Virus record (IMG/VR): IMGVR_UViG_3300020406_000804
Span: 26,462-90,461 of that record
Length of the DNA stretch: 64,000 nt
Source of the DNA: a virus
Reading direction: 5' to 3' (one strand)
The translations under genes were made by a program, and so were the position numbers. Shown one piece after another: positions 32,480 to 60,558 of this stretch (position 1 is the stretch's first letter; each line of letters begins with the position of its first letter). The notes beneath the pieces are model-generated. The model did not search any database. It had not been told where the DNA came from and saw only the letters and a list, made by a program, of their open reading frames with translations.

Positions 32480-35400
32480 ATGCCATTTAATTCGCGTGCC
32501 CTGAGTCAAATTGCCCAAACAGTATCCACAACAGTCACACCAGCAGTCACACCAGCTCTAGCTCTACCTGGCCGACAGCAAGCTGCTAGCAGAACTACAG
32601 GCAATACCAATATGGTTGCGCAAGTCGCTGCAGCTGTCGCGCAGATGCCAGCACAAAATGCAAATGCCAATAGTATGGTAATACAACCTCAGTCTGTTCC
32701 AAAAGCTAATACGTCTCCCTTGTCCACCTCGGCGAATTTAAACTTCGCGGGCCTAGGCCTGCCATTTGCTGGCCAGACTCCTACCACAACCGACGACAGT
32801 GAAACTGAAACTTCCGAACGCGTCAATGCCAGCGGCATGGCGGCTATCGCAGGTATCGCAGCTGCAGTCGGCACCCCGGAGCCGGATGTGGGTATTGTTG
32901 TGCAACCTCAACAAGCAGACACTTCCACCATCAGGCAGGTGGCAAACGCCGTTATACCACCTGCAGATAACAATCAATTTCAAATCCTTGTTGATGCCCA
33001 GCAGGATGAAGCTTCCAGTGGAAACAACGACGGCATAGCTGCGGTTCGCAATGCCGCCATTGGCCAACTCGGTCCGGACATGTCCGCCTTTGAGGTGCTG
33101 CCGGAGATGCCTGGCACCGCAGCCGAAAGCGCCGACGATGTAGCTCAACAATCTCAAAACGCCTCTTCTATCCTCGGTGCGGTTATTCCACCAGACTTCA
33201 GCACCCTCCAGGCTGCAGCTGCCGCGGCAGCGGTGGTCGAAGAAGCTGAAGCTGCTGACCCGCTGCTGGATCCCGATATCCTACTCAGAGTCAACCGGCC
33301 AGACACCTTGGTTCTTCCTGATGAGGAAGAGCAAGGAGATGGTGAACAGATCCAGTTCAACCAAGGTATGAACCAAATAAGTTTTCAAGGTTTCGACGCA
33401 GCGGTCGATGCTGATGAAGCCTTCAAGGCCCAAGATGGTGCTGACCAGCTGCTGAATCCCGATGCTTTACTACTCAATTTCGGCTCCGGTGAAGGAGAAG
33501 CCGATACCGGCGCCGGCAGCCCCGATGACCCTTTTTACGGAAGTCAATGGAGGGGCGGGACTTTGGAAGATCTTCCAGTGCTGGACGTCGGCGGTGGCGA
33601 AGGCACGGCAACTGGCGGAGATAAGGCGGCCATTACATCAGGCACTGGCTATGCCGCCACAGGCACTAACACAGCTGCTACCGGTGTTGATTGGGCTGAT
33701 GGCGACGGCCAAGTATCAACAGGTGCTACGGGTGCAACTGGCGCCACCGGCGCGCAAAATGCTGCAACATATCGTGCAGGCTTTTCAGATAGTTTTTGTG
33801 ATGATAGAGACCCATCAGAACAATATGTTTCAAACGCCGGTGCTTCAGCGCCATCAACTGGGCTATTAGGCGTGAACACAGCGCCACTACCATCTGATTT
33901 TATATTTGAAAGGACTTCAATAATTCCAAGATTGCGCCGCCAAGGCCCTGGTGGCACGGGCGCAACTGGCGCAACCGGCGCTGGCTCTGGAGGATTTGCC
34001 GCTTCTTTTGGAAGAAAAAATTATATGATCCCACAGCAAAATTATTATAATGATTTTATAGGCCCAAATTTTGATTTTATAGCAAGACTTAAAGAAGAGG
34101 CACAGGTGCAAAATTATAACTTTTCTTCAGAAGCTTCAAATTTAGTCGACGACCTCAGATATGTAGTTGGTGGGGTTTTCGACCATCTTGCGACAAGGGA
34201 CGGAAAGCCAGAAGTTACACGTCAGCATATGCAAAAGGTCACCGGAGCTTCAACGGGGGCGACCGGAGCAACCGGAGCAACCGGTTCAGAGCCAGAAGAT
34301 CCTTCGAGAGGCATTCACGATCAAGCCGCACGGCGAGGCATGTCGTTGGTTATTCAGGGTGCGGCGGAAAGCGCGCCTAGGATTACCGACACATCAGATA
34401 TTGATGAAGCGTTCTCTGGAGACCAAGGAGAGTATAGAACCACTGTAGTTTTAAATGCAGATCGTCTTGCCAGTTCAAAAATAAGACTGCCCCCCGCATC
34501 CTCTCTTTCAAGCAGGCACAGTGTAGTTTACGGCTTGAATGTTGAGGAAGCAATTAGCAACGTTCCAGAATATATTGCTTACCATATAGGGGAAAACAGA
34601 TTTAAGTTTGACCACACCTTTGTAGCACCAGTAGGGTATACAGGATATATGGCTAGTTTAATGAATAATGATATAGCAGAGGCACAAGTTAGATCTAACT
34701 TGGTTAGTCTTGCAACATATAATATTAGGCCCGAAAGCCAAACTCTTGCAGGCTTGCAAAATGGTGAAATTAGCAAAAAAAGTGTTTATAGACAATATGT
34801 TACAGATTACGGGATAGGAGATATTCGTCCCCAGGCGTTTCGATTGTCAAATGCTAATGGCGATCCTGATGCCTGTGTCCAAGATATAATACAAAAATTT
34901 CCTGCAAGAAAAGTTGTGGAAATGGACGAGATAAACAAAGATATACGTAATGCGATAGAGCACCCTAATATGTTGTCGGATCAGGTTGAGAATCTCGGTG
35001 ATGATTCGCCCGTGGCTCCGACGCCGATGATGAATAGGTGGGTGCATGCAAATGTTAATGTTCTTAACCAAATAAAGTTTAAAATGTCCCACAGTTCTTT
35101 GATCGCAGATGTGTTTTCCAAGCACTCCATGGACTTTCTTCTTTTTGAAATGATTGACCAGCTGACCCCTGCTAATTCTACACATTATACACAAATTTTA
35201 GATAACTCCTTAAACAACCCAGAATTAAATTCCTATACCCTCAGTGCCCAAGCAGACCTTGCAGCTGTAAACTTGCGTCCAAATGAATATCAGTGCCCGA
35301 TTCAAACAATGAGAAAAATGATAGAAAACATTCCTTACTTGAACCAACCTCAATATAATTTTGATATTGATACGAATAGTTATCCTCTGGGATTTGAACA

Positions 35401-37750
35401 CTATGTAGAATATGCAGCTGCAGATCTTTTAGGAACTCAAGGCGCCACCACCCCGGGAGAAGTCTTAAGGGCCAAATTTTATGATTTATTTAACAACCAC
35501 AGCATTGATGCACTTGATGGCAGCGTCACGCTTGGGGGTTTTAAACAAAATTTGGGGACTGTCATTTTGTACGACCCCGCGTTCACCCCAGAGAATATAT
35601 TCAGAAAATCATATGAAATATTTAACGGAACACCTTGCGTCTCAGAGGTCCTTGCATATAGGGTGGAGAAAATTGATACAGCCAGCGGAATAAAGTTGCA
35701 AGATTTTTACTTTATGAACACCTCTAAAATAGATGAATTTACATTTTACGATTCTCAGGTTATATCTGGTAAAAGTTACACTTATAGGATATACACTATA
35801 AATATAGTCTTCGGCGCAAAATATTATTATAATTATGCGAACGCCAAAAGGTACGTATACGATGATAAATTTCGCCCGGGAGAATATCTCACCACGATTA
35901 ATTTCAATGGTGAGGCTATTATTCGGTCAATCGGCGCGCAATCTGGTGCTGCTACCGGTGCAACCGGCGCAGATGTGAGTGATATGTCCGAACCAGAGAA
36001 AAAGATTCGCAGGTGGGATTTAGACGAAAAAGTTACAATTGCGTTTGATATGGTTGTAACTCCAGAGATGAGAATTATAGAAGCTCCGTATTATGAAGAG
36101 ACTATAGTCACTTCAACTAATACGAGACCACCAATATACCCGACTGCCATGGCTACTAGGTCCAGAAGATATACTGATTCTTTTCCGGAGCCAGTTTATT
36201 TTCAAATGAGTCCATCTAGCGGAGATTTTAATGCCGTTCCTATTCCAATTTTAGAAAAAGATATAGAAATGATAAACGATACGGCAAGAAAGCAGCTTTC
36301 CTCAGATGCAGTCGAAGGAAATTCTGTTTTCCAAGGAGAATTAAATTTTTCTTCTTTTGAACGCCCATCATTATATCAAATGATATATATTATCCCAGAA
36401 GATCAAGATTATATGCCTTATAGTTATAATAATTTTTCAGTAGGCTCTGTTGTAGAGGTGGACGCAAATTCCCCTCTTTTCGATGTTAATTTACCAGTAA
36501 ATACTTGTGTGTATATAATTTTTAGAGCAATTAATTCTGGGGGAATATCAAACCCAAGTCCAGTGTATAAGTTTGTCCACAGTAATTATGGTGATGGATC
36601 TCACATATTTTTTGATATTGTTTCTTTATCACAAAGAAGAGTTGACGATTTAATTGCTTATGATAAATTTATACACATAGGCCTAGCAAGAGAACATACA
36701 AGATTCAATCTTGGCGCTCCCACAGGCGCCTCAGTCACCGCCGCAAGAGCGACTTTGAGCCGGGGGATGAACATTATTGCCAGAGCGGCCGGATCCGGAA
36801 CAGGAGCCACTGGCACTGAAAACGGCAATAACATTGATTTAACGACTGCACCAGGCGATATGCAAAATGTAAACCTTGGCCCTGCGAGTAATCGTATCTG
36901 GGGGCGACGTTTTAAATTTAGAATAAGATCTTTATCTTCTGGCAATGCTTTTGATATTAACACTACTTTCAACTACCGGAAATCTGTAATTGGTGCACCA
37001 GATGAGATAGACAACTATAATTTAGAGTGTGCTGACAACCTTAGTTTGGATAGGCTAGGACGTCGAGTCCAAAACGCTCAACGATCTGATGAGCTTTTGG
37101 CCATGGGCGAGAGAGGCTGTCACGGAGATGGAATTACGACCAGACCAGATATCGTCATAAATAACGAAGAAGATTCAAGTGACCTTGTATTTGACCTTTC
37201 AGTGGTTGCTGGCCAGAGTGCTTTCGGGTCCGAGACTATGACTCTCAGTAGTGACGAGACCGTCGATTTCGTACCCATGACCCCTTTTGCTGGGACACTT
37301 CCATTTATCTCAGACGCCGCTGTCGACGACGCGGTGCAAAATCAATTAAACAGAGTTCTCCCTGGGCAAGTCATCATCGATGTGAGAGGTTCCCTCGCCC
37401 AAGTAGATCCCGAGGGTTTGATGATCGGCAGCAGTACTCTAGACCCCCAAGAGGCACAACAGGGACAATCCACCGAGCCCACTGTAGAGGCAGTCGCCCA
37501 ATTCATAAATTTACAACGACAGTCCGGCGCCATACGACCCGCCTCAAGCACAACTTTGACACTGCCGGGGCAACAAGCGAGCACGAGCAATAGTAGCCAA
37601 ACGCAACCCGTCGGCGTCGTAATGCCAAGCGCAAACACACTGCAGCAGCTAGCTGCTGTTGCTGGGATACCCACCACCACCACGACGACTTCTCGAAGCG
37701 CAACATCGATGCTTATTCCGCGCCGGACGACAGGAAGGACAGGCTACTAA
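32480..37750 (+). CDS. putative virion protein (1756 aa) with low-complexity termini, GAT-triplet repeats and Fn3-like segments
   Basis: Ala/Gln/Thr/Asp-rich N- and C-termini and repeated TGATGATGA peptides. FYDSQVISGKSYTYRIY and YIIFRAINSGGISNPS resemble fibronectin type III strands. Confidence 0.6.
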   Translation: MPFNSRALSQIAQTVSTTVTPAVTPALALPGRQQAASRTTGNTNMVAQVAAAVAQMPAQNANANSMVIQPQSVPKANTSPLSTSANLNFAGLGLPFAGQTPTTTDDSETETSERVNASGMAAIAGIAAAVGTPEPDVGIVVQPQQADTSTIRQVANAVIPPADNNQFQILVDAQQDEASSGNNDGIAAVRNAAIGQLGPDMSAFEVLPEMPGTAAESADDVAQQSQNASSILGAVIPPDFSTLQAAAAAAAVVEEAEAADPLLDPDILLRVNRPDTLVLPDEEEQGDGEQIQFNQGMNQISFQGFDAAVDADEAFKAQDGADQLLNPDALLLNFGSGEGEADTGAGSPDDPFYGSQWRGGTLEDLPVLDVGGGEGTATGGDKAAITSGTGYAATGTNTAATGVDWADGDGQVSTGATGATGATGAQNAATYRAGFSDSFCDDRDPSEQYVSNAGASAPSTGLLGVNTAPLPSDFIFERTSIIPRLRRQGPGGTGATGATGAGSGGFAASFGRKNYMIPQQNYYNDFIGPNFDFIARLKEEAQVQNYNFSSEASNLVDDLRYVVGGVFDHLATRDGKPEVTRQHMQKVTGASTGATGATGATGSEPEDPSRGIHDQAARRGMSLVIQGAAESAPRITDTSDIDEAFSGDQGEYRTTVVLNADRLASSKIRLPPASSLSSRHSVVYGLNVEEAISNVPEYIAYHIGENRFKFDHTFVAPVGYTGYMASLMNNDIAEAQVRSNLVSLATYNIRPESQTLAGLQNGEISKKSVYRQYVTDYGIGDIRPQAFRLSNANGDPDACVQDIIQKFPARKVVEMDEINKDIRNAIEHPNMLSDQVENLGDDSPVAPTPMMNRWVHANVNVLNQIKFKMSHSSLIADVFSKHSMDFLLFEMIDQLTPANSTHYTQILDNSLNNPELNSYTLSAQADLAAVNLRPNEYQCPIQTMRKMIENIPYLNQPQYNFDIDTNSYPLGFEHYVEYAAADLLGTQGATTPGEVLRAKFYDLFNNHSIDALDGSVTLGGFKQNLGTVILYDPAFTPENIFRKSYEIFNGTPCVSEVLAYRVEKIDTASGIKLQDFYFMNTSKIDEFTFYDSQVISGKSYTYRIYTINIVFGAKYYYNYANAKRYVYDDKFRPGEYLTTINFNGEAIIRSIGAQSGAATGATGADVSDMSEPEKKIRRWDLDEKVTIAFDMVVTPEMRIIEAPYYEETIVTSTNTRPPIYPTAMATRSRRYTDSFPEPVYFQMSPSSGDFNAVPIPILEKDIEMINDTARKQLSSDAVEGNSVFQGELNFSSFERPSLYQMIYIIPEDQDYMPYSYNNFSVGSVVEVDANSPLFDVNLPVNTCVYIIFRAINSGGISNPSPVYKFVHSNYGDGSHIFFDIVSLSQRRVDDLIAYDKFIHIGLAREHTRFNLGAPTGASVTAARATLSRGMNIIARAAGSGTGATGTENGNNIDLTTAPGDMQNVNLGPASNRIWGRRFKFRIRSLSSGNAFDINTTFNYRKSVIGAPDEIDNYNLECADNLSLDRLGRRVQNAQRSDELLAMGERGCHGDGITTRPDIVINNEEDSSDLVFDLSVVAGQSAFGSETMTLSSDETVDFVPMTPFAGTLPFISDAAVDDAVQNQLNRVLPGQVIIDVRGSLAQVDPEGLMIGSSTLDPQEAQQGQSTEPTVEAVAQFINLQRQSGAIRPASSTTLTLPGQQASTSNSSQTQPVGVVMPSANTLQQLAAVAGIPTTTTTTSRSATSMLIPRRTTGRTGY

Positions 37751-37780
37751 AATTTATTTAAATAAAATATAAATAAATTT
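37750..37780. repeat. 11-bp perfect AT-only inverted repeat
   Basis: AAATTTATTTA (37750-37760), a 9 nt spacer, then TAAATAAATTT (37770-37780), in the gap before the NTase pair. Confidence 0.55.
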
Positions 37781-37803: not shown

Positions 37804-38469
37804 ATGTTAGTACCAGTTAAGGCAAAAAATTTTTACTATAAAGTGGGTAACATTCAAACAACGGTGCCCTGGTTTAGACCAGACCCCCAATATCTGAATT
37901 CTTGGAAAGAAGAGTTTTTCAGTCACAATGAAGTCACTCAGTTCAGATATTTTCTTCATGGATCTTCCCTCCAGAATGCAAGATGTTTTGATATAGATCT
38001 CATGATGGCTAATAAATACAGCAACCCAAAACAATTAGAAAGAGTCATGGAGATTGCACTCACTGCCGGCTTCAAAAACAGGCAATATATAGATTTACAT
38101 TGGGTTAGTCCCCCCGCCGATAGAATACTTGAAAAAAGCCCATGTAACCACTTTGAGATAGCCTGCAACAGTTATCTGCAAAATGGTTACTGTACTCTAA
38201 AATCTTGTGTCGACACCCATGCTATAGATAACATGGTTAAATACGGTAGAACAATTGTAAGAGGCAATAAAATTGTATTTAGCCATTTAAACGATAAATG
38301 GCATGACGCATCTAAAGATGCTATATTTGGAGGTACAGAATTGCTATATAAAAAATGCACCGTCATCGTACCCAGGATAATTAAAAAAATGCAAAATAAT
38401 TTTTATAAAAATCCAATAGTTGAAATAACTAAAGACACAAATTTTATGGAAATAATACAGTGGGCATAA
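37804..38469 (+). CDS. putative Pol-beta-superfamily nucleotidyltransferase with Cys4 motif (paralogue 1)
   Basis: LHGSS-x6-FDIDL (hG[GS]...DxD), a third Asp in YIDL, and C-x6-C-x8-C-x4-C. Confidence 0.6.
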   Translation: MLVPVKAKNFYYKVGNIQTTVPWFRPDPQYLNSWKEEFFSHNEVTQFRYFLHGSSLQNARCFDIDLMMANKYSNPKQLERVMEIALTAGFKNRQYIDLHWVSPPADRILEKSPCNHFEIACNSYLQNGYCTLKSCVDTHAIDNMVKYGRTIVRGNKIVFSHLNDKWHDASKDAIFGGTELLYKKCTVIVPRIIKKMQNNFYKNPIVEITKDTNFMEIIQWA

Positions 38470-39107
38470 ATTACTTTCATTACTGTAAGGGCCCTTGCGA
38501 AACTTCTATACCATGGCTCGCCCCTGATCCTATAAATTTGAACAACTGGAAAGAAGATTTATATTCAGAAATTGATGATTTTGGTAGCTATAAATTATGG
38601 CTCATGGGCGGCGCCATCGAAAGCCGTCAATCTTGGGATGTAGACATTCAAATTTCAGGGCCACTCAATGATAAAGATTTATTAGAAAATATAATGATAA
38701 CGGCAACTAATTTAGGGTTTAAGAATAGAACTCTTATAGACTGCTTATACACAGATTTGCCAGAAGAGTACTTATCGATGGGTAATCTCTGTAAGGGTAT
38801 GCAGATTGCTTGCGAAGAAACAGTTAGAACAGGGCAATGTACTGGAATGAACTGTGATAAAAATATAACCAAAGTTAAAAATACAATGGTAACTATATGC
38901 CGGGAAATATATAAAAATGGAGAAGAAATTTCTTGCTATAGAAGAGCAAAGCAGATACATAATAATTTATGGGCGACAGAAAATGTACCACACCCATGTC
39001 AATATTACAAGTGCGTGGAAAGGTACAGGAAACATAAAACTAATTTAACTTATCCGATTTTAATAAATCGAGATATTGATTTTAAAAATTATTTATCTTG
39101 GGCGTAA
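38460..39107 (+). CDS. putative Pol-beta-superfamily nucleotidyltransferase with Cys4 motif (paralogue 2)
   Basis: LMGGA-x6-WDVDI, LIDC and the same C-x6-C-x8-C-x4-C spacing. Shares PW..PDP..LN.WKE, GFKNR and the terminal WA with paralogue 1. Confidence 0.6.
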   Translation: MGINYFHYCKGPCETSIPWLAPDPINLNNWKEDLYSEIDDFGSYKLWLMGGAIESRQSWDVDIQISGPLNDKDLLENIMITATNLGFKNRTLIDCLYTDLPEEYLSMGNLCKGMQIACEETVRTGQCTGMNCDKNITKVKNTMVTICREIYKNGEEISCYRRAKQIHNNLWATENVPHPCQYYKCVERYRKHKTNLTYPILINRDIDFKNYLSWA

Positions 39108-39176: not shown

Positions 39177-40190
39177 ATGGCGTTTTTAGATAATTCAGGA
39201 GACATCCTGTTGGATGCAGTTTTAACTGACTTGGGAAGAAAAAGATTAGCAGAGGGGGTTTTCAATGTAACTCAGTTTGCTCTTGGTGATGAAGAAATAA
39301 ATTATGGCCTATACAACACTAGTGATACCCGCGGGTCTCTGTTTTATGACTTGGAGATAATGCAGACACCTATTCTTGAAGCATTTACAAGTAACGAGTC
39401 CCTTATGAAAACAAGGCTTCTTACTTTCTCAAGAACAGATCTGCTGTACATGCCAATCTTAAAGATTAACGACAAAGTAGAAGAAGTCAAGCCATCATCA
39501 AGTAATAATGGATTTTTGCTTTTGGCAGACCGAGACACCGTAAAAGCGAATCCAACAGCAACCGCCCGGGCAGAAGCTGGATTTATTCCTGGAATGTTTA
39601 GGGCAGAAGACAACGCGCGATTTAGCACAAAATGTATAAATGTTGATCAAGGTATAGATAGCACTGAAGATGGAAGAACTGTTTTACATGAAATGGATAG
39701 ATCTCTATACGAGACAGCCTATTTGATCAAAGTAGATAATCGTCTCTTAAAGCTACAGTTACCCCGCGGCCTAAAAAATTACAACTCTTTTAGTCCAATT
39801 TTATCTGAACAGTACCTTGACGATGATTACGTGGCAACATACTACATTGTTACTGGGCTGCCCGGATCTCCGATAGTGGAGCCTAGGAATGGCGCCTTTA
39901 GATCAAGAAACCTAATAAACGACAACGCAACAGAAAACACGACAGAGATAGAAGAAAACGAAATGTTTCAGGGGCCCCTAGGAAGAGTTTTACAATTTGT
40001 CCCAAGAGTTACAGATGAGGTTCAATTTTCTAATTCGTTTTTTACAAAATTGGGCTCAACCGGATCCAACCTAACATATCGAGGACAAACAATTTCAAGC
40101 TACAAGTTCATTGATACGAGTATCAGTGTTCAGGGTATGACTACCGGATATTCAATTGATATCCCAATTAGAATTATAAAAAAGAGTTAA
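39177..40190 (+). CDS. virion structural protein (tail/baseplate-associated)
   Basis: AAGGAG SD; MAFLDNSGDILLDAVLTDLGRKRLA...FALGDEEINY N-terminus is paralogous to ORF 27804. Confidence 0.7.
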   Translation: MAFLDNSGDILLDAVLTDLGRKRLAEGVFNVTQFALGDEEINYGLYNTSDTRGSLFYDLEIMQTPILEAFTSNESLMKTRLLTFSRTDLLYMPILKINDKVEEVKPSSSNNGFLLLADRDTVKANPTATARAEAGFIPGMFRAEDNARFSTKCINVDQGIDSTEDGRTVLHEMDRSLYETAYLIKVDNRLLKLQLPRGLKNYNSFSPILSEQYLDDDYVATYYIVTGLPGSPIVEPRNGAFRSRNLINDNATENTTEIEENEMFQGPLGRVLQFVPRVTDEVQFSNSFFTKLGSTGSNLTYRGQTISSYKFIDTSISVQGMTTGYSIDIPIRIIKKS

Positions 40191-40217: not shown

Positions 40218-41654
40218 ATGAGTCAAATTTCTTATAAATCGCTAACACAAGATGACATAGACATTTCAAGAACCATATTGCATGAATCAGTGCCAATTAC
40301 TGGAACTTTATTGTCAGGAACATACGCTACATCGTCTACATCAGGAAGAGAATTAAATATTAAAACATACACGCACGGTATGTTTCAATCTATTTACGAC
40401 TACCCTCACTTATCTTCCTCTTCAAACCATTTGCTGGATGTCACAGTGGGCCTTTCGACTACACCCACCGCGTCACTTTCCGCATCCAACGTAAACCAGG
40501 TTTCAAAAAAAGTGAACATCTATAACCAAATGGCTCAAGTGCTAGCTGGATACACAACTGCTAGCACTATCAGAAGATTTGACAATGACGGAAACTTGAC
40601 TGATGGAGTTGGAAAAATAGATAATGCAATATTTTTAAATTTTTCTAGGCTATTAACAAAAGATGAAATTAAAAAGGGATCTTTCTCCATGGTCATCGGC
40701 GCTGGCAGCGCGTATGCTAGCCCGTATGGGTCAACAATAACAGTCTCAGACTCTACTGCAACAACAAATTTCAGAACAAACTCTCCGGCTGGTGAGTATG
40801 GCTTTCTAAAGAATACAGCTGCAGCAGCATCTGTAAATATTGTTTTCACAGGTGCACCGAGTACTGGTAACGCAATAACAATTCGTGCAATTAAAGAAGA
40901 TGCAACATTCGCATCCGCGTCCTTTTCAGCGCATGGCTCAAACAACACTGGTCTAAACTTTGACAAAAGCGGCACCACAGCTGCTACAGTTGCAAATTTA
41001 AAAGCTGCAATCGAGCGAAATACTGATATCAAAGATCTTGTCACAGTCAGCGCTGTGCAGTCAGGTACAACAATAACGGTGACACAGGTAAACAAAGGTG
41101 CTGGAGGCAACACTACGGTTACGAGCAACTTGGCCAACGTTTCAGTTGGCGGAGCGACAGCAGGACAAAGTGGCGTTTTTATCGGTGGAGTTTCTAATAT
41201 CACAACAGGCTTGATCTATTACCAAGCTGGTATTGCCGTTCTCACTTCCTCTGTTTTCGGAGACTCTACTCAAATAATGAACAATGCGTCATCATCTCAC
41301 GATGATGTTCTGACAAATGCTACTATCGATGACTTTGCAGACGGTCTTCGGAGAAGAGTGCAAAATGTAACTTTTAACAACACAACAGAATTAAATTCAT
41401 CGATTTATTTTTGCAGGCTAAAAGCAAATGAATTTAATTATAGTTCAAATCCAACTTATTTGTCAGAAAGTAAAATTGTGGTGAAGACAAATCCTGGAGT
41501 TGTGAATGAATACTTGACTCCTCCAATTTCATATGTGACAACTGTTGGTCTATATTCTGCTAACAATGAATTGCTAGCAGTTTCAAAATTGTCTGAACCT
41601 TTAAAGAAGACCCCAACGAATGAACTGACACTGAGGGTCAGACTGGATTACTGA
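40218..41654 (+). CDS. virion structural protein (tail-associated)
   Basis: C-terminal FNYSSNPTY...YVTTVGLYSANNELLAVSKLSEPLKK...VRLDY is shared with the next ORF and resembles tail-fibre attachment domains; carries the shared inserted module. Confidence 0.7.
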   Translation: MSQISYKSLTQDDIDISRTILHESVPITGTLLSGTYATSSTSGRELNIKTYTHGMFQSIYDYPHLSSSSNHLLDVTVGLSTTPTASLSASNVNQVSKKVNIYNQMAQVLAGYTTASTIRRFDNDGNLTDGVGKIDNAIFLNFSRLLTKDEIKKGSFSMVIGAGSAYASPYGSTITVSDSTATTNFRTNSPAGEYGFLKNTAAAASVNIVFTGAPSTGNAITIRAIKEDATFASASFSAHGSNNTGLNFDKSGTTAATVANLKAAIERNTDIKDLVTVSAVQSGTTITVTQVNKGAGGNTTVTSNLANVSVGGATAGQSGVFIGGVSNITTGLIYYQAGIAVLTSSVFGDSTQIMNNASSSHDDVLTNATIDDFADGLRRRVQNVTFNNTTELNSSIYFCRLKANEFNYSSNPTYLSESKIVVKTNPGVVNEYLTPPISYVTTVGLYSANNELLAVSKLSEPLKKTPTNELTLRVRLDY

Positions 41655-41656
41655 AA

Positions 41657-44600
41657 ATGGGTTTCAAAAAATTTGATTCTAAAGATTTGATTTACAATCA
41701 AATTATAACAAACCCTAAATTTAAATTTTTAATCCACACCGGTAGTGTATACTTACAAAACGAAAAATCTAAAGACGGAGATTTTTCTAATAAAATAAAG
41801 CATGTATCCCAAGGTCATGTAAATTTGCATGAGCTTAATATTAATAGACCAAGTGACAAGATAATATTTCCTTTTGTCCATAAGTCTAGTGAGCGCTTGG
41901 CGTTTAACGGCAGCTCTATAACTTCAATTAGTGATTTTGATAATACTGAAATTTCTGAACTTGGGGACCAGATAGCGGGTTCTTACCCCATGTCTGCTTC
42001 TGTAAGCAGGATTTTCATTCCAGCCGGATTTGAAATAAACGAATACGACGCTACTGGCCAAATCGCAAATCAAGCCCATGCTAACAAAAAATATATAAGA
42101 TCTTTAAGAAATGTGATAGAAACCCAAGCACATATAGGATATAATAATAAATACAATTCTCTGGGTACAGAGAAGGTCAATATGGTCTGCGTTCCAGGAA
42201 TTTTTTATGGCTCAAAAATAAATAGAGGCAGCGTAAAATTAAGCACTTATGTAACCGGTACTCTTGTAGCCACTGCTACCGATCAATATCAAGACGGCCG
42301 CTTGATAGAAACTTATAATATAACAAACGTATCAACAGTAACTGAAGAGACCAGTCAAGAGGTGGAAGTTTTAGATTCAGTAGATTTTACCAACGCTACT
42401 GGATCTGTTTCCTCGTCAGGTTCGCCCACGCAATATCGATATGATAATATAATTTTTGCCTCACAATCTGCAGTGACAAGTTTTTCAGATAGATTATTTA
42501 CGCATCCGAAACTCGGCCGCGCCGATGGAAATAATACGCTTCGAGAAGGTACTTTTGGCGGCGCCGCAGTGGTTAGCGGCAATATCATGGCTATAACACA
42601 CAAGGGAAATCTTACCAACACCCCCCAAGATCTTTATAGGGGTAATCAAGGCATATTCTTTTTTAAAAGTGGTTCTTCTGGTTGGCAATTTTCAAATTCC
42701 ATATTTCCCGACGCATCTATCTACCCCAAAACTCGACGAAGTGATAGTGAAGTTTCTAGCTATATGGTCGGCAAGTCTTTTGACTTTGAAGGCGACCTTG
42801 CGGTTCTCGGCGGCTTAGTTGATGGAGGCATGGGCGGAGAACATGATAATGATAAACTTTATATATATAGAACCGGAGCAGCTGGCTGGAACCTCGAAGC
42901 AACGCTGACAACAGCTTCTTTCGTGCCGGCTCAATGGCAATACGACGGTGATAATCCAATGAACAACTATTATCAACGCGACAATACACATGGCATCTTT
43001 AGTAGTTGTAAAATTTATAACAATAGGATTGTTGTGGGTGGTTTTGATTTTGTAAAACGCCGCGTAGGCGGTGGAGATTCGTTTGCCGGAGTAGCCACAT
43101 TTACCAGTTCTTCTGATGCCGGCTGGGCTTTTGAACAATTTTTAACCTCCAGTCACACTCACAGCGCCAATACAAACGTTGATGACGATCACCGCAAAGG
43201 AATCGGCACCAATGGCGCCGGCGGAAACCAAAACCTTGATATGCATGGCAATCGCATCATCGCTGGCGGCAGAGGTGGATATGACAATATCGTAAACATT
43301 GTTGACAATGGCAGAATTAGTGTGTGGCAATCTGGAAGTGAAGGTTGGGAAGAAGAGACTCAGATAGATTTATTTAGTGCAGGGTTGACCTCTTCAGTTC
43401 CTTTTGGAGAAGGCGCAAATGAGTATCATATCTCGAATCTTGACAATGGCTCAGGTCAGTGGTACGCGGGCACGCAAGAGTTCAAAATGTATACATTTTT
43501 TGGCTACTGGTCATGTGCAATTAGCGGTAGTTATATCGCAGCTTCAGCACTTGGCTATGGAAGTCCCAATAACAGATCATTTGTAAAAAATAGAATTTTT
43601 ATGTTTAGAAGCTCATCTGAATCAGGCTGGGACTTAGAAGCCAGTCTTAGATCCCCAAATCCATTTACTGGTGGTACCGGCTCTCGTGGGACTACTAGTT
43701 ATAAAGACAGTTTTGGATATAATTTAGCTTTCAACAACTCAGTCCCAGGTATGTTGGTTACGCGCGCACTCGATTACTCGCCCACTGCCAAGGATCCTTA
43801 CGATCCACATGGCCGCGTCCATATTTACAAATCCTCCTCGGCATCTGGATGGGCTCTTGCCCAAAATATTGATAACCCTTACCTTGGAACACCAGTAACT
43901 TCTAGAAATTTTTATAAAAAGTATGGCGAGCACCCCAACCCTCACGGTTCTCTTAGGCAAACAGATTCAATTGGATTTGACGGTACAAATATAGTTGTGC
44001 CCTTTAGCCAAATTATAGAGTCTGAAAATGATACTGGAACTACAGTAGAGCAATATCGATTCGGTGCGGTCCAGGTACTTCAAGGATCAGCATCCTACAG
44101 AACAGAAACGCAAACAACAGAGTCTACAAAAACAGTACATGTAGGCGACAATAAGCAAGTTGGTTTGGCAATTTATAACCAAGGTATTTTTATTTTAACA
44201 TCATCAGCCGGATTCGCAACGGGCAGCTTAGAGAAATATGAGTCTACTCTATTAACGACAAGCTCAGCTTGGGCAAACTTTGGTACAGGACTCCGGCAAG
44301 TTGGGGAACAGTTAAATCACGGCACCTGCCCAAATACTTCTTATACTATAGATTTTGAGGGCGTGAATAAAGTTCCAACACTAACTATGTATGCTTATTC
44401 TGAGATAGGAGAAAACAACTACTCTCACAACCCAACCTTTTTGACAGAATCCCGTATATCAAACACAAACTATAGTAAGGATTCATTTTTACAAAACTCA
44501 ATAGAAATAAAGAGCGTAAATAAATCAGAATACAGTGATTTTACCGAAGATCATAAAAATACGACTTACATTTCTAAGATTGGAATATATGACAAGTATA

Positions 44601-44689
44601 AAAATTTAATCGCCATTGCCTCTCTTGCAAATCCTGTCAAAAAGACTGAAAAGAGAGATTTTATGTTTAAAATAGGAATTGATTTTTAG
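41657..44689 (+). CDS. tail-associated protein with an inserted FG-GAP-like beta-propeller
   Basis: C-terminal NYSHNPTF...YISKIGIYDKYKNLIAIASLANPVKK...IGIDF is paralogous to ORF 40218; about 7 internal repeats of the type G-x-h-x-h-[FY]-x-S-x-S-x-GW. Confidence 0.7.
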   Translation: MGFKKFDSKDLIYNQIITNPKFKFLIHTGSVYLQNEKSKDGDFSNKIKHVSQGHVNLHELNINRPSDKIIFPFVHKSSERLAFNGSSITSISDFDNTEISELGDQIAGSYPMSASVSRIFIPAGFEINEYDATGQIANQAHANKKYIRSLRNVIETQAHIGYNNKYNSLGTEKVNMVCVPGIFYGSKINRGSVKLSTYVTGTLVATATDQYQDGRLIETYNITNVSTVTEETSQEVEVLDSVDFTNATGSVSSSGSPTQYRYDNIIFASQSAVTSFSDRLFTHPKLGRADGNNTLREGTFGGAAVVSGNIMAITHKGNLTNTPQDLYRGNQGIFFFKSGSSGWQFSNSIFPDASIYPKTRRSDSEVSSYMVGKSFDFEGDLAVLGGLVDGGMGGEHDNDKLYIYRTGAAGWNLEATLTTASFVPAQWQYDGDNPMNNYYQRDNTHGIFSSCKIYNNRIVVGGFDFVKRRVGGGDSFAGVATFTSSSDAGWAFEQFLTSSHTHSANTNVDDDHRKGIGTNGAGGNQNLDMHGNRIIAGGRGGYDNIVNIVDNGRISVWQSGSEGWEEETQIDLFSAGLTSSVPFGEGANEYHISNLDNGSGQWYAGTQEFKMYTFFGYWSCAISGSYIAASALGYGSPNNRSFVKNRIFMFRSSSESGWDLEASLRSPNPFTGGTGSRGTTSYKDSFGYNLAFNNSVPGMLVTRALDYSPTAKDPYDPHGRVHIYKSSSASGWALAQNIDNPYLGTPVTSRNFYKKYGEHPNPHGSLRQTDSIGFDGTNIVVPFSQIIESENDTGTTVEQYRFGAVQVLQGSASYRTETQTTESTKTVHVGDNKQVGLAIYNQGIFILTSSAGFATGSLEKYESTLLTTSSAWANFGTGLRQVGEQLNHGTCPNTSYTIDFEGVNKVPTLTMYAYSEIGENNYSHNPTFLTESRISNTNYSKDSFLQNSIEIKSVNKSEYSDFTEDHKNTTYISKIGIYDKYKNLIAIASLANPVKKTEKRDFMFKIGIDF

Positions 44690-46967: not shown

Positions 46968-49900
46968 ATGAGATTTGCTCATATCGCGGATACCCACATC
47001 CGGAATTTAAAATACCATTTTGAATACAAAGAAGTATTCAAACAACTTTACAAATCACTAAAAAAAGAAAACGTAGACTATATTATCCATTGCGGAGATA
47101 TAGCCCATACTAAAACACAGATATCACCAGAGTTTGTAGATTTGTGTCGTGATTTCTTTGAAAACTTAGCAGCCATTGCACCCACTTACATTATATTGGG
47201 CAATCACGATGGTAACCTGAGAAATGATTCTAGGCAAGATGCCTTGTCGCCAATTGTAAAAGCCATCAACTCGCCAAACCTTACTCTACTTAAAAGCGCG
47301 GGAGAGACAAAATTAAACGATCATTTTTGTTTAAATGTTCTTTCGGTGTTTGACGAAGAGAATTGGGTCGCCCCGACAAATCCAGAAGCAGTTAACATCG
47401 CCTTATATCACGGTGCAATTGACAGATCAAAGACAGATCAAAACTGGACCCTCGGCGGAGATCATAATGTTGAAATTTTTGATGAGTTTGACTTTGCCTT
47501 CTTGGGAGATATTCATAAAACTCAGCAGCTAGATAAGGAAGGCCGTATTTGGTATGCTGGTTCAACAGTTCAGCAAAATTTCGGAGAGTCGCTAGACAAG
47601 GGTTATTTACTTTGGGATATTGAAAATAAAAATAAATTTACCAACAGACTTATCACATTTGATAACCCAAAACCATTCGTCACCGTAAAATTAACAGAGA
47701 AAGGAAATCTTCCAAGAGCACCAATACGAATCGGCGCCAGAGTGAGAATAGTATCAGAATCAAACGTTTCTTTAGACAGGGTTAGAAAAGCAATCGAAGC
47801 AGTAAAATACAAGCACTCGCCAGAATCTGTGACTTATTTAAACAGGGCAGCAAATCAAAAAATAAACGTTTCCGCACCAGAAGGTTTAAAAAAGCAGGAT
47901 CTTAGAGATTTAAAAACTCAAGAAAAGTTGATGGCCGAATATTTGAACGAGTTTGAAGCAACAGACGAGGTCTTAGAAAGAGTTTATAGCCTGAACAAAA
48001 AATATAATAAACAAATAGAAGATAACGAAGAGGTGCTTAGAAACATAAATTGGTCTCTGCAGAGTCTAGAGTGGGATAACCTCTTTAATTATGGCGAAGG
48101 TAATTTTATTGATTTTACTAAGCTTGAGGGTATTGTAGGAATATTCGGAAAAAATTATTCTGGCAAATCTTCTATTGTTGACAGCCTACTATATACAATG
48201 TATAACTCAACTTCAAAATCAATCCGAAAAAATCTTAACATTATCAATCAAAATAGAGATTCTTGCTTGGGCCGAGCTAAAATTAAAGTAAACGGCCAGG
48301 ATTTTATCATTGAAAGAACATCTAAAAAGTATGTCAAAAGATTAAAGGGGGTAGAGACGCAGGAAGCCAGTACTGATTTGGAATTTTATAAAGAAGACCT
48401 ATCAGGAGAGGTCACTGGGTTGAACGGTACATCAAGACAAGATACGGACTACAATATACGAAAGAACTTTGGGACTGTTCAAGATTTTCTCATGACTTCC
48501 ATGGCGTCTCAACTGGATTCTCTTTCGTTTATTAACGAAGGATCAACAAAGAGAAAGGAATATTTAGCAAAATTTCTCGATTTACAAATTTTTGATAAAA
48601 AATTTAAAATGGCAAAAGAAGAGTCAGCAGCTACAAAAATAGCACTTAGAAAATTAGATGATGTTGATTTCGATGAACAGATAAAATCAATAAGCAAAGA
48701 TATCACAAAAAGTGAACTATCTATTGAATCCAACAAGGCGCAGTGTAAATCAATGAGAGCTGAGCTTCAAGAATTAAATTCTCAAGTAGTAGCCTTATCA
48801 GCAAAAATAGATTCAGTACCAGCGGAGATAATAGACCCAGTACTAACGCACCAAGAGATCTCTAGAAGAGAGAGGTTAATATTAAAAACCTCCGCGGATA
48901 AACTCAAGACAATTCAAGCCTTAGAAGAAAATCAGAAGAAGTTTGAAAAAATAAATGATTTCTTGAACACATTTAATGTAGATTCCTATAGAGTTAAAAA
49001 AGAAGAAATTGATCAAAAAAAGAAGAGTCTAGAAAGTTTATTATCTGAAATGAGTAGCCTTTCGGAAGAAAAGGTTAGAGGCACTAAAAAGCAAGACCTT
49101 TTGTCTGAAGTCCCGTGTGGCAACCAATATCCATCTTGTAAGTTTATTAGTGACGCGCATACTGCAGCTGCTCTAGTTCAGATTACTGAATCAAAAATGA
49201 ACGCCAATTCGTTAAAGATAAATAATTTAGGAAAAGAAATACATGAAAGCAACCCTTCTCAAGTTGAAGACCATTTAAGAAAACATGATCTCCTTCTCGA
49301 AAAAAAAGTAAATTTAGCAACATCCATTGCAACGGGTAAAATCAAGATTGAAAGATCTGAGGCCCTATTATATAGGGAACAAGTTGAGTTAGAAAATTTA
49401 AAAATTAAAAGCAAAGAGTATGATGAAAATAAGGATGCAATAGAGAATTTAAAGCAATTGCTTAGTGATTTGAGAAATCTTCAATCTCTTGAAAGAGAAA
49501 AGGAATCAGAAATAGAAAGCTGTGAGACAAGAGTCATGAAGCTACATCAAAAGCATGGGTCTTTAGAGCAAAAGCTCAAATCAGTAAACGCGCAATTAGA
49601 AGAAAAGCTTGAACTAGAACAGGACTTTGCCGCCTACCACCTACTTATGACATGTTGTCACCCAAATGGCGTCTCTTATGAAATTATTAAAAATAGACTG
49701 CCTTTTATAAACGAAGAAATAGCAAAAATATTAGCTAATATTGTAGAGTTTGAAGTTTTTATTACAAATAATGAAGATAAGCTAGACATTTTTATCAAGC
49801 ACCCAAGGCACGATCCGCGGCCATTAGAGATGGGATCTGGAGCAGAAAAGACTATTGCGAGCATGGCAATCAGGCTTGCATTTCTAACGGTGTCTAGTTT

Positions 49901-50105
49901 ACCAAAGTCAGATCTATTTATATTAGATGAGCCTGGCACTGCCCTCGATGAGGAGAATATGGAAGGCTTTGTAAGAATCTTAGACATGATAAAGGGATAC
50001 TTTAAAACAGTTATACTTGTTTCTCATTTAGACAGTTTAAAAGATTGTGTAGACATGCAGATAAACATAGAAAAAAAGTCAGGTTATGCACACGTTAACA
50101 TATAA
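46968..50105 (+). CDS. fused Mre11/SbcD nuclease - Rad50/SbcC ATPase (T4 gp47+gp46-like)
   Basis: Phosphoesterase motifs (ADTH, CGDI, GNHD, LYHG, GDIH), then Walker A GKNYSGKSS, coiled coil with a central CGNQYPSC hook-like motif, signature GSGAE, Walker B ILDEP and H-loop VSH. Confidence 0.92.
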   Translation: MRFAHIADTHIRNLKYHFEYKEVFKQLYKSLKKENVDYIIHCGDIAHTKTQISPEFVDLCRDFFENLAAIAPTYIILGNHDGNLRNDSRQDALSPIVKAINSPNLTLLKSAGETKLNDHFCLNVLSVFDEENWVAPTNPEAVNIALYHGAIDRSKTDQNWTLGGDHNVEIFDEFDFAFLGDIHKTQQLDKEGRIWYAGSTVQQNFGESLDKGYLLWDIENKNKFTNRLITFDNPKPFVTVKLTEKGNLPRAPIRIGARVRIVSESNVSLDRVRKAIEAVKYKHSPESVTYLNRAANQKINVSAPEGLKKQDLRDLKTQEKLMAEYLNEFEATDEVLERVYSLNKKYNKQIEDNEEVLRNINWSLQSLEWDNLFNYGEGNFIDFTKLEGIVGIFGKNYSGKSSIVDSLLYTMYNSTSKSIRKNLNIINQNRDSCLGRAKIKVNGQDFIIERTSKKYVKRLKGVETQEASTDLEFYKEDLSGEVTGLNGTSRQDTDYNIRKNFGTVQDFLMTSMASQLDSLSFINEGSTKRKEYLAKFLDLQIFDKKFKMAKEESAATKIALRKLDDVDFDEQIKSISKDITKSELSIESNKAQCKSMRAELQELNSQVVALSAKIDSVPAEIIDPVLTHQEISRRERLILKTSADKLKTIQALEENQKKFEKINDFLNTFNVDSYRVKKEEIDQKKKSLESLLSEMSSLSEEKVRGTKKQDLLSEVPCGNQYPSCKFISDAHTAAALVQITESKMNANSLKINNLGKEIHESNPSQVEDHLRKHDLLLEKKVNLATSIATGKIKIERSEALLYREQVELENLKIKSKEYDENKDAIENLKQLLSDLRNLQSLEREKESEIESCETRVMKLHQKHGSLEQKLKSVNAQLEEKLELEQDFAAYHLLMTCCHPNGVSYEIIKNRLPFINEEIAKILANIVEFEVFITNNEDKLDIFIKHPRHDPRPLEMGSGAEKTIASMAIRLAFLTVSSLPKSDLFILDEPGTALDEENMEGFVRILDMIKGYFKTVILVSHLDSLKDCVDMQINIEKKSGYAHVNI

Positions 50106-60112: not shown

Positions 60113-60120
60113 CTATTTAT
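60113..60120 (+). promoter_or_regulatory. candidate late promoter (CTATTTAT)
   Basis: Recurring motif immediately after a stop codon and before the GGAG SD of ORF 60139. Confidence 0.55.
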
Positions 60121-60138
60121 AAATAATGGAGATTAAAA

Positions 60139-60543: not shown

Positions 60544-60558
60544 TTTAAGGCAAAAAGT

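What the first reader, a model, noticed from the sequence alone, without database searches (positions are those of the whole stretch)
37804..39107. Tandem pair of Cys4 nucleotidyltransferase-like paralogues inserted in the tail module
Seen: two overlapping ~215-220 aa ORFs align end to end (PW..PDP..LN.WKE; hG[GS]-x8-D-h-D; GFKNR..ID; terminal WA). Both carry an identically spaced C-x6-C-x8-C-x4-C motif. They interrupt a run of structural genes and are flanked by their own intergenic signals. Established: hG[GS]...DxD plus a third Asp is the Pol-beta NTase signature, shared by LicD/fukutin phosphotransferases, MNT/AbiE toxins and CD-NTases. Inference: this may be an undescribed two-subunit metal-binding (Zn or Fe-S) NTase system. 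It could transfer NMP or phospho-groups onto virion proteins or glycans, modify host targets, or counter nucleotide-signalling defence. I do not recognise this Cys spacing from a named family.
Basis: partly seen in the sequence, partly recalled or inferred. Interest (0 to 1): 0.8.

Follow-up and report, generated by a model that had tools for sequence, protein, structure and literature searches.

The report
Duplicated phage nucleotidyltransferase with Cys4 insert
Two neighbouring genes of an uncultured marine T4-related phage are diverged copies of a previously unnamed, phage-only branch of a well-known family of nucleotide-transferring enzymes, usually present as one copy among tail-type genes, and nobody yet knows what they modify.

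Summary
ORF1 (37804-38469) and ORF2 (38460-39107) are full-length paralogues (29% identity, E 8e-27). Both carry hG[GS]-x8-DxD, a third Asp and an identically spaced C-x6-C-x8-C-x4-C.

They hit no Pfam, PHROG or NCBIfam model directly, and nothing in 50,697 GenBank phage records. An exhaustive search found 71 relatives. In a 67-sequence alignment the two DxD Asp are invariant and the third position is always acidic. One clade of relatives passes Pfam's NTP_transf_2 threshold and aligns to the Cys4 clade at 99.1% hhalign probability. They are therefore divergent Pol-beta-type nucleotidyltransferases.

The gene is not a random insertion. In 14 of 20 distinct related IMG/VR loci one homologue lies in the same syntenic module. 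The pair is lineage-specific: 20 of 20 loci and 5 of 5 whole records hold one copy. The Cys4 stretch is an insertion confined to one clade. One member has His as the fourth ligand, which favours a metal site.

This is a new variant of a known kind, of moderate interest.

The parts
37768..37775 (+). TATAAATA, a T4-type late-promoter-like motif 28 nt upstream of the ORF1 ATG, in a 53-nt AT-rich spacer
   Evidence: The consensus is recalled knowledge. 0 of 20 homologous loci have it upstream of their copy, so it is a weak lead only.
37804..38469 (+). ORF1, 221 aa, pI 9.0: divergent Pol-beta-type nucleotidyltransferase, in a clade with P0002 (64% identity) and P0003 (41%)
37960..37998 (+). ORF1 catalytic motif hG53-S54-x8-D63-x-D65
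   Evidence: G53, D63 and D65 are invariant in the 20-sequence alignment A1.
38092..38094 (+). ORF1 D97, the third carboxylate (YIDLHW)
   Evidence: conserved in 90% or more of A1; the equivalent column is D in 62 and E in 5 of 67 sequences.
38143..38208 (+). ORF1 Cys4 insert, C114-x6-C121-x8-C130-x4-C135
   Evidence: It is an insertion relative to the PF01909-positive clade.
38460..39107 (+). ORF2, 215 aa, pI 5.8, GTG start overlapping the ORF1 end by 10 nt (translational coupling inferred): paralogous nucleotidyltransferase, in a clade with P0074 (87% identity) and P0004 (44%)
38607..38645 (+). ORF2 catalytic motif hG50-G51-x8-D60-x-D62
   Evidence: D60 and D62 are present in 67 of 67 sequences, G50 in 63 of 67.
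38739..38741 (+). ORF2 D94, the third carboxylate (LIDCLY)
   Evidence: D in 62 and E in 5 of 67 sequences.
38790..38855 (+). ORF2 Cys4 insert, C111-x6-C118-x8-C127-x4-C132
39108..39115 (+). Second TATAAATA, in the 69-nt spacer before the next gene. That gene (39177) has a clear AAGGAG ribosome-binding site, whereas ORF1 and ORF2 have none.

Best explanation
ORF1 and ORF2 are two catalytically intact copies of one enzyme. It belongs to an unnamed, phage-only branch of the Pol-beta-type (Pfam NTP_transf_2) nucleotidyltransferase superfamily.

Shown:
- They are paralogues.
- Both keep the hG[GS]...DxD...D set that binds the two Mg2+ ions and the NTP triphosphate in this superfamily.
- The family is homologous to proteins that pass the Pfam model.
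- The family's normal state is one gene per phage, sitting among tail, baseplate or fibre-type genes of uncultured T4-related myoviruses.
- The tandem pair is a duplication older than this phage but specific to its lineage.
- The C-x6-C-x8-C-x4-C stretch is an insertion of about 20 residues after the third-Asp strand, and it is confined to one clade.

Inferred:
- Each protein transfers an NMP from an NTP to a hydroxyl acceptor.
- The Cys4 insert binds a metal, most simply structural Zn.
- The enzymes act as dimers, as many small members of the superfamily do, so the two paralogues may form a heterodimer or may have split acceptor or NTP specificity.
- They are made late, at low level (no Shine-Dalgarno, coupled starts), together with the tail genes.

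My best guess for the acceptor, at about 0.3, is a macromolecule of the tail module: a protein side chain or a glycan on a virion protein. The alternative is a nucleic-acid end.
For: Paralogy.

Family: 71 representatives at E <= 1e-3 and 23 at E <= 1e-10 among 1.84 billion.

Catalytic columns: D60 in 67/67, D62 in 67/67, position 94 D in 62 plus E in 5 of 67, G50 in 63/67.

Link to Pfam:
- Profile A2 finds P0081, P0082, P0083, P0085 and P0088 at about 1e-29, and all carry PF01909.
- My own hmmscan gives 25.4-27.7 bits against a cut-off of 21 for 5 of 5. The second half of the fused protein P0071 scores 26.7 bits.
- hhalign of the Cys4 clade (A3) against that clade (A6): probability 99.1%, E 1.8e-18, with the Cys stretch opposite a gap.

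PDB by profile:
- Profile A2: all 5 matches up to E 10 are Pol-beta NTases (Poly A polymerase entries 4wby, 4wbz, 1vfg; MNT 8xeo, 8xeh), aligned at hGG...DxD, E 0.5-1.5.
- Profile A6: 4wby at E 0.013.

ESM Atlas leads for both ORFs are NTP_transf_2, GlnD and DUF6932 clusters.

Synteny and copy number:
- 12 of 20 distinct loci have homologues of the window genes at 39177 or 40218 within 7 kb. Two more have the RuvC and primase homologues that follow the module.
- 20 of 20 loci have one copy.
- 5 of 5 whole records have one copy, including a complete 203-kb genome.

Duplication age: ORF1 and ORF2 fall in separate supported subclades (SH-aLRT 99 and 98) of one Cys4-bearing clade (99) (quick tree).

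Metal site: exact spacing in 15 of 88 stored family proteins, plus L006h and L007h. P0012 has C-x6-C-x8-C-x4-H.

Dimer idea: fused two-domain forms P0054 and P0071 have two scored domains each, with both acidic triads kept. ORF1 has pI 9.0 and ORF2 pI 5.8.

The insert is neutral to acidic, and the family's median pI is 6.8. Neither fits a nucleic-acid-binding knuckle.
Against: - ORF1 and ORF2 themselves match no Pfam, PHROG or NCBIfam model. A direct PF01909 search of the contig finds nothing. The assignment is therefore transitive.
- All PDB sequence hits are non-significant and cover only about 30-45 residues.
- No structure could be predicted. The Atlas's own models are poor (pLDDT 0.52 and 0.56) and their matches to named NTase clusters are weak (TM by query 0.35-0.44).
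- Nothing identifies an acceptor.
- One lineage (L011-13) has the gene between UvdE and DHFR, in a DNA-metabolism context.
- In many loci the gene lies at the border with RuvC, primase and SbcCD genes. Tail linkage may therefore be positional only.
- The neighbours called 'structural' have no family or PDB hits.
- Single-copy relatives argue that a heterodimer is not needed.
- Cys-less members in the same module argue that the metal site is not essential to the core function.
Confidence: 0.6

Rival explanations
1. They are nucleic-acid 3'-end nucleotidyltransferases. They would repair or tail RNA or tRNA (a minimal CCA-adding or poly(A)-type head domain), or fill in DNA ends, countering host nucleases or serving recombination.
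For: - The only near-significant solved relative is an entry named Poly A polymerase (4wby, E 0.013), with a very similar hVGGvv...WDVDhvv motif.
- Phages are known to carry RlaP and CCA-adding Pol-beta NTases for RNA repair (PMC7824862, passages read). Short phage 'tRNA nucleotidyltransferases' are described in T7-like phages (PMC7693777, passages read).
- In L011-13 the gene lies between UvdE and DHFR, near an exonuclease. In many loci it lies 1-4 kb from RuvC, primase and SbcCD.
Against: - The match is confined to motif A. The proteins are 215-221 aa against 390-410 aa for those chains.
- No PolyA_pol, RlaP or Pol X model or structure was matched.
- No tRNA genes lie in the window.
- Family pI is not basic (median 6.8), and the Cys insert is neutral to acidic.
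- The gene's commonest company is fibre or baseplate-type genes.
Confidence: 0.2
2. They are counter-defence or host-takeover enzymes. They would nucleotidylate a host protein (for example a HEPN-type toxin, as MNT antitoxins do) or a small signalling or antibiotic-like molecule, and might be delivered with the virion.
For: - Weak PDB matches to MNT (8xeo, 8xeh).
- The family size of 170-220 aa resembles small-molecule NTases (recalled).
- The family is phage-only and patchy: it is absent at the syntenic place in Flavobacterium phage immuto and Microcystis phage Mel-JY01.
- The lineage-specific duplication, with both copies intact, is the kind of pattern seen under arms-race diversification.
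Against: - No HEPN or other partner is conserved next to the gene. Its immediate neighbours differ between lineages.
- The N-termini have no early Glu, so there is no T4-type LxE capsid-targeting leader (sequence; the leader rule is recalled).
- The conserved position inside a late structural-type module in 14 of 20 loci is unusual for accessory counter-defence genes.
Confidence: 0.15
3. They are non-catalytic assembly or structural proteins that merely retain a nucleotidyltransferase-like fold.
For: - The position among structural-type genes.
- T4 gp63 is a precedent for a nucleic-acid enzyme that also promotes tail-fibre attachment (recalled, not checked here).
Against: - All three carboxylates and the Gly of hG[GS] are kept across 67 sequences at 18% mean column identity. 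That is hard to explain without catalysis.
- There is no Shine-Dalgarno before ORF1 or ORF2, in contrast with AAGGAG before the next gene. This fits a low-abundance enzyme.
Confidence: 0.05

Closest known systems
Pfam NTP_transf_2 (PF01909), minimal Pol-beta-fold nucleotidyltransferases such as MNT and kanamycin nucleotidyltransferase
   Same: - The hG[GS]-x(8-12)-DxD motif plus a third acidic residue about 32 residues later.
- Small size.
- A sister clade of the family passes the Pfam threshold and aligns at 99.1% hhalign probability.
   Different: - ORF1 and ORF2 do not reach the model themselves.
- They carry a conserved N-terminal extension of about 45 residues (F.Y..G...T.PW.RPDP..LN.WK).
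- They have a non-helical-looking C-terminal half ending in DF...I.W[AP].
- This clade has the Cys4 insert.
- There is no HEPN partner.
- The family is found only in phage contigs.
Solved chains deposited as 'Poly A polymerase' (PDB 4wby, 4wbz, 1vfg), which I recall to be the class II CCA/A-adding enzyme of Aquifex aeolicus
   Same: The closest motif A by sequence: yhVGGvv....WDVDhvv.G. E is 0.013 with profile A6 and 0.5 with profile A2.
   Different: - Only about 30-45 residues align.
- Those enzymes are 390-410 aa.
- The neck, body and tail domains and nucleotide-selecting motifs B-E of class II enzymes are recalled features. They were not looked for here.
- No Pfam hit to the PolyA_pol family.
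GlnD/GlnE protein nucleotidylyltransferases
   Same: Atlas structure search places the GlnD NTase region among the nearest named neighbours of both ORFs: TM by query 0.35-0.44 over 112-134 aligned residues. These enzymes nucleotidylate a protein Tyr (recalled). That is the chemistry I favour for a tail-module acceptor.
   Different: - The structural lead is weak and comes from low-confidence models.
- There is no sequence match.
- GlnD and GlnE are large multidomain regulators.
'Mini-PolX' pairs with a DUF6267 ligase-like partner, noted by earlier agents of this scan in other T4-related giant phages
   Same: Tandem or duplicated small Pol-beta-type genes in late operons of uncultured T4-related phages (AI notes, unchecked).
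   Different: - No Pol X structure appears among PDB profile hits up to E 10.
- No ligase-like neighbour.
- No head-targeting leader.
- The look-up by sequence found no look-alike in earlier windows.
T4 gp63 (RNA ligase 1 and tail-fibre attachment protein)
   Same: A nucleotidyl-transferring enzyme functionally tied to tail-fibre assembly in a T4-type phage (recalled, not checked here).
   Different: - A different fold (covalent ligase or capping NTase).
- No sequence relation was tested or claimed.
- This is an analogy of context only.

Membership tests
Pol-beta-type nucleotidyltransferase superfamily (Pfam NTP_transf_2, PF01909) | hG[GS] followed within about 8-13 residues by [DE]h[DE]h | tested here: met
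   ORF1 has G53-S54...D63-I-D65 and ORF2 has G50-G51...D60-V-D62. In alignment A2 the columns are G in 63/67, D in 67/67 and D in 67/67.
Pol-beta-type nucleotidyltransferase superfamily (Pfam NTP_transf_2, PF01909) | A third carboxylate on a later strand | tested here: met
   D97 in ORF1 and D94 in ORF2. The column is D in 62 and E in 5 of 67 sequences. That it lies on a strand is inferred from the hydrophobic LID/VDI context.
Pol-beta-type nucleotidyltransferase superfamily (Pfam NTP_transf_2, PF01909) | A significant match to the family model | tested here: inconclusive
   - Direct: none for ORF1 or ORF2. 1 of 20 close relatives matched, at E 0.09.
- Transitive: 5 of 5 flagged relatives and one half of fused P0071 score 25-28 bits against a cut-off of 21.
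- hhalign of the Cys4 clade against that clade: 99.1%, E 1.8e-18.
Pol-beta-type nucleotidyltransferase superfamily (Pfam NTP_transf_2, PF01909) | An alpha-beta-alpha-beta-alpha-beta core with the three carboxylates clustered | not testable with these tools
The Atlas's own models (pLDDT 0.52 and 0.56) give NTP_transf_2 clusters at TM 0.35-0.41 by query and 0.59-0.66 by target. These are leads only.
LicD / fukutin phosphotransferases | A match to the LicD model | tested here: not met
   No LicD hit at E <= 1 for ORF1, ORF2 or the 20 members of A1.
MNT-HEPN toxin-antitoxin pairs | An adjacent HEPN partner and an MNT of about 100-130 aa | tested here: not met
   - The neighbours are a 1756-aa and a 337-aa protein without Pfam hits.
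- Neighbours differ between loci.
- MNT chains match only at E 0.65-0.81.
- The proteins are 215-221 aa.
AbiEii / MenT (DUF1814) NTase toxins | A match to the family model | tested here: not met
   No such Pfam hit. PADLOC was not searched.
CD-NTase / cGAS | A match to a CD-NTase model, and a size of about 300 aa or more | tested here: not met
   No Pfam hit. The proteins are 215-221 aa.
[quoted passage not shown] | A head domain plus neck, body and tail (about 400 aa) and a match to the PolyA_pol model | tested here: not met
   Only motif A aligns. No Pfam hit. The length is about half.
Family X DNA polymerases (mini Pol X) | Sequence similarity to Pol X palm and fingers | tested here: not met
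   No Pol X chain among the hits up to E 10 with profiles A1, A2 or A6. No Pfam hit.
Cys4 metal-binding module (Zn or Fe-S) | Four ligands with conserved spacing, and ligand-type substitutions | tested here: met
   - Exact spacing in 15 of 88 stored family proteins, plus L006h and L007h.
- P0012 has His at the fourth position.
- C114, C121, C130, C135 and G128 are invariant in A3.
- Metal identity and actual binding were not testable here.

The most novel reading that the evidence does not exclude
The family is a virion-maturation enzyme. It would covalently nucleotidylate (for example AMPylate or UMPylate) Tyr or Ser hydroxyls on flexible Gly-rich C-terminal tails of tail-module proteins, a post-translational modification not described for phage particles. 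In 13 of 20 loci the gene directly upstream ends in a Gly-rich tail, often ...GGY, ...GGYSG or ...GISS, against 17 of 266 other genes. In this lineage the enzyme would have duplicated into a metal-bearing heterodimer, or into two enzymes with split acceptor specificity.
Probability: 0.1. Interest if true: 0.8.

Novelty: new variant of a known kind. Interest (0 to 1): 0.5.

Why it matters
Small Pol-beta nucleotidyltransferases act as antitoxins, toxins, resistance enzymes, signal makers and RNA repair enzymes. A phage-only branch that current Pfam, PHROG and NCBIfam models mostly miss has no proposed substrate. It is fixed inside the tail-type gene module of a widespread group of uncultured marine T4-related phages, and it was found in none of 50,697 deposited phage genomes.

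If the acceptor is a virion protein or glycan, this would be a new kind of particle modification bearing on host recognition. If it is a nucleic-acid end or a host molecule, it would add a new counter-defence or repair tool. The clade-specific Cys4 insert and the independent duplications (a tandem pair here, fused double domains elsewhere) give direct handles for biochemistry.

Tried and rejected
**Searches that gave nothing**
- Direct family scans of ORF1 and ORF2 (Pfam, PHROGs, NCBIfam) gave only noise: LSM at E 0.056 and Kp4 at E 0.023.
- tblastn against 50,697 GenBank phage records with ORF1, ORF2, P0079, P0083 and P0030: no match.
- Single-protein scans of IMG/VR: none. Alignment A4 in IMG/VR: none.
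- Both metagenome scans (A4, A5): none. Pairing in the closest relatives (P0002, P0003, P0004, P0074) could therefore not be examined.
- Search for longer fusions (407-2000 aa): none, which is weak evidence.
- PDB searches with the neighbours, as single proteins and as profiles A8 and A9: nothing.
- Tail sheath model on the contig: no match.
- Look-up of earlier findings by sequence: none.

**Candidates tested and rejected**
- Adjacent small ORFs in L006 and L007 as hidden paralogues: rejected (hhalign probability about 0.1%).
- Immuto's 403-aa 'putative nucleic acid binding protein' at the syntenic place gave E 2e-4 with the A2 HMM. It has no hGG or DxD and only 46% hhalign probability, so I rejected it as chance.
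- P0070 (1666 aa, a repeat protein) is a spurious phmmer hit. It does not score with the A2 HMM.
- A T4-type late promoter as a family feature: 0 of 20 homologous loci have TATAAATA upstream of their copy.

**Caveats on what I did use**
- The Gly-rich-tail enrichment (Fisher p 6e-10) is inflated by related loci. Roughly 6 of 11 independent upstream families show it. Other proteins of the same modules also have such tails, and the window's own upstream protein has only ...TGRTGY.
- Sequencing runs: no RNA holder was listed.
- Contigs laid on the region show only that near-identical phages carry the same ORF1/ORF2 junction, in 3 runs of 3 studies: X4, X6 and X9.
- The careful tree did not finish, so the quick tree is used. 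Rows left out of it: P0001 (identical to ORF1), P0070, P0054, P0071, P0089, P0067, P0049, P0059, P0060, and every protein outside 150-240 aa.

**Literature**
- Four searches found no paper on a tail-module Pol-beta NTase, and none holding the term DUF6932.
- For PMC7824862 and PMC7693777 I read only the passages returned by 'find'. For all other papers I saw only search listings.
- Supplementary files were not opened.
Full report
**1. Setting**

The window is bases 26462-90461 of a 90.5-kb IMG/VR virus contig that CheckV rates 46% complete.
- It encodes a T4-type portal (PF07230, E 7e-81), a T4-type large terminase and a gp6-like baseplate wedge protein.
- By portal, its nearest named relatives are Flavobacterium phage immuto and Microcystis phage Mel-JY01, at about 42% identity.
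- Runs labelled marine or seawater metagenome hold the stretch.
- From 5262 to 44689 all genes run on the + strand with gaps of 0-27 nt. The exceptions are the two gaps flanking the finding, of 53 and 69 nt.

**2. The observation**

ORF1 (37804-38469, 221 aa) and ORF2 (38460-39107, 215 aa, GTG start) overlap by 10 nt. They align end to end at 29% identity, E 8e-27.

C-x6-C-x8-C-x4-C sits at ORF1 114-135 and ORF2 111-132. Both flanking spacers hold TATAAATA, which I recall as the T4 late-promoter consensus. The window has only 11 such sites against 7.0 expected, and 0 of 20 homologous loci have one before their copy. I treat it as a weak lead.

ORF1 and ORF2 lack a Shine-Dalgarno sequence, while the next gene has AAGGAG.

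**3. What the proteins are**

Neither ORF hits Pfam, PHROGs or NCBIfam, nor any of 50,697 GenBank phage records. An exhaustive phmmer search of 1.84 billion representatives with ORF2 found 71 proteins at E <= 1e-3 and 23 at E <= 1e-10. Most are 170-230 aa.

In a 67-sequence alignment (A2, mean column identity 18%):
- D60 and D62 are invariant.
- Position 94 is Asp in 62 and Glu in 5.
- G50 is Gly in 63.

This is the hG[GS]...DxD...D signature of Pol-beta-type nucleotidyltransferases.

The link to the named family is transitive but strong.
- Profile A2 retrieves P0081, P0082, P0083, P0085 and P0088 at about 1e-29, all with precomputed PF01909.
- My own hmmscan gives them 25.4-27.7 bits against the cut-off of 21. 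The second half of the fused protein P0071 scores 26.7 bits.
- hhalign of the Cys4 clade (A3, 9 sequences) against that clade (A6, 6 sequences) gives probability 99.1%, E 1.8e-18 over 143 columns. The G-G, DxD and third Asp are in register, and the Cys stretch lies opposite a gap.

PDB profile searches are not significant, but they point one way.
- With A2, 5 of 5 matches up to E 10 are Pol-beta NTases: three deposited as Poly A polymerase and two MNT.
- With A6, 4wby reaches E 0.013.
- With A1, the only match is an unrelated chain at E 0.14.

The ESM Atlas gives NTP_transf_2, GlnD and DUF6932 clusters as the named neighbours of both ORFs, from low-confidence models.

**4. Is the pair a system?**

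I obtained 29 related IMG/VR loci, 20 of them distinct. Each has exactly one family gene within about 7 kb. Five of five whole records have exactly one copy, including a complete 203-kb genome with terminal repeats. Small ORFs next to the homologues are not hidden paralogues.

A quick maximum-likelihood tree of 82 rows places all Cys4 proteins inside one clade (SH-aLRT 99). ORF1 and ORF2 fall in separate subclades, with support 99 and 98. Each subclade contains proteins from other samples: P0002, P0003, P0008, P0009, P0019 and P0068 with ORF1, and P0074 and P0004 with ORF2.

The duplication therefore predates this phage, but it is confined to its lineage.

Near-identical phages in three other runs from three studies do carry the ORF1/ORF2 junction.

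In a distant clade the domain has independently become a fused double. P0054 and P0071 each have two domains, scored at 1e-19 to 1e-20. ORF1 is basic (pI 9.0) and ORF2 acidic (pI 5.8).

These points allow a dimer or heterodimer but do not show one.

**5. The Cys4 stretch**

Exact spacing occurs in 15 of 88 distinct stored family proteins and in the homologues of L006 and L007. Within the Cys4-bearing clade some members have lost it: P0010, P0015-18, P0020 and P0047.

P0012 reads C-x6-C-x8-C-x4-H. A Cys-to-His swap fits a metal ligand better than a disulfide. The insert is neutral to acidic, so it is unlikely to be a nucleic-acid-binding knuckle.

Syntenic homologues without the insert (L009, L010, L019-L027, L031) show that it is not needed for the core role.

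**6. Context**

The gene is missing at the syntenic place in immuto and Mel-JY01.
- In 12 of 20 distinct loci it lies within 7 kb of homologues of the window genes at 39177 or 40218.
- In two more loci it lies beside the RuvC-like and primase genes that follow the module.
- The exact slot varies between lineages.
- One lineage (L011-13) has it between UvdE and DHFR.

The neighbours themselves remain unidentified.

The same contig has two GT4 glycosyltransferases, two ATP-grasp enzymes, a methyltransferase and an epimerase about 36 kb upstream.

One unexpected pattern is that the gene directly upstream of the NTase ends in a Gly-rich tail in 13 of 20 loci, against 17 of 266 other genes. This comes with caveats:
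- The loci are related.
- Other module proteins share the trait.
- The window's own upstream protein ends only in ...TGRTGY.

**7. Verdict**

These are two intact copies of a divergent, phage-only Pol-beta nucleotidyltransferase. The gene is normally single-copy and resides in a tail-type late module. This clade carries an inserted, probably metal-binding Cys4 element.

- Shown: the chemistry class, by homology.
- Inferred: NMP transfer, dimerisation, metal binding and late low-level expression.
- Unknown: the acceptor. I lean, at about 0.3, towards a tail-module protein or glycan over a nucleic-acid end (0.2) or a host or defence target (0.15).

Four literature searches found no description of such a tail-module enzyme. 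Known phage Pol-beta NTases such as RlaP and CCA-adding enzymes (PMC7824862, passages; PMC7693777, passages) were not matched.

It is a new variant of a known kind, of moderate interest.

Noticed in passing
Loci L005, L009, L010, L016, L019-L026, L032 (the gene ending just before the NTase homologue); window 37700-37750: The protein encoded directly upstream of the NTase gene ends in a Gly-rich tail, often with a terminal Tyr or Ser (…SGGGSGGGY, …GGSSGGYSG, …QGGGGISS), in 13 of 20 loci against 17 of 266 other genes. These upstream proteins belong to several apparently unrelated families. The window's own 1756-aa protein ends only in …TGRTGY. This might mark acceptor tails, or it might simply be a trait of this module.
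   Followed up: partly
window 41370-41654 and 44400-44689; L019:4685-4990, L020:2336-2641, L023:7650-7955, L027:7650-7955, L031:7650-7955, L009:9992-10300, L010:9873-10181: A C-terminal domain of about 95 residues (…TTVGLYN..NELLAVAKLSKPL.K......RV.LDF/Y) is shared by the 478-aa and 1010-aa proteins and by several proteins of immuto and Mel-JY01. It also occurs as a stand-alone 101-102-aa protein, which in five loci directly follows the NTase gene. No Pfam, PHROG or PDB match.
   Followed up: partly
window 39177-39330: The N-terminus of the 337-aa protein (MAFLDNSGDILLDAVLTDLGRKRLAEG…) is conserved in many phages. When marine metagenome contigs are laid on the window, summed contig depth there reaches 200-360, against 0-20 over most neighbouring bins. 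This suggests a very widespread structural-type gene family with no annotation.
   Followed up: partly
window 32480-37750: The 1756-aa protein upstream holds several short Gly-Ala-Thr triplet runs (GATGATGATG, TGATGATGA). They look like collagen-type G-X-Y repeats in a fibre-like protein.
   Followed up: no
G000:C1:16800-28100 (L015 3826-15122; window 1-1661): A glycan-type gene cluster in the same contig: two GT4 glycosyltransferases, two RimK-like ATP-grasp enzymes, a methyltransferase and an NAD-dependent epimerase or dehydratase. A PhoH-PIN fusion and a PD-(D/E)XK nuclease lie just before it.
   Followed up: partly
window 46968-50105: One 1045-aa ORF joins an SbcD-like phosphoesterase (residues 1-340) to an SbcC or Rad50-like ATPase (residues 265-1040). 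It is a fused gp47/gp46-type nuclease.
   Followed up: no
Proteins P0054 (391 aa) and P0071 (384 aa), from the representative search: Fused tandem doubles of the same NTase domain, each half keeping the acidic triad. They have C-x-C pairs in the linker region. This is an independent duplication of the family in another clade.
   Followed up: partly
L003 7735-8946 (immuto35A_162): The immuto gene annotated 'putative nucleic acid binding protein' sits where the window has the NTase pair. It gives a weak HMM match (E 2e-4) but lacks hGG and DxD. I judged it a chance match.
   Followed up: yes
window 58754-61986: Two LamG (Laminin_G_3) proteins, of 452 and 475 aa, lie between the head-protease region and the capsid gene. 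Another LamG domain occurs in the 1169-aa tail-module protein at 18430-21939.
   Followed up: no
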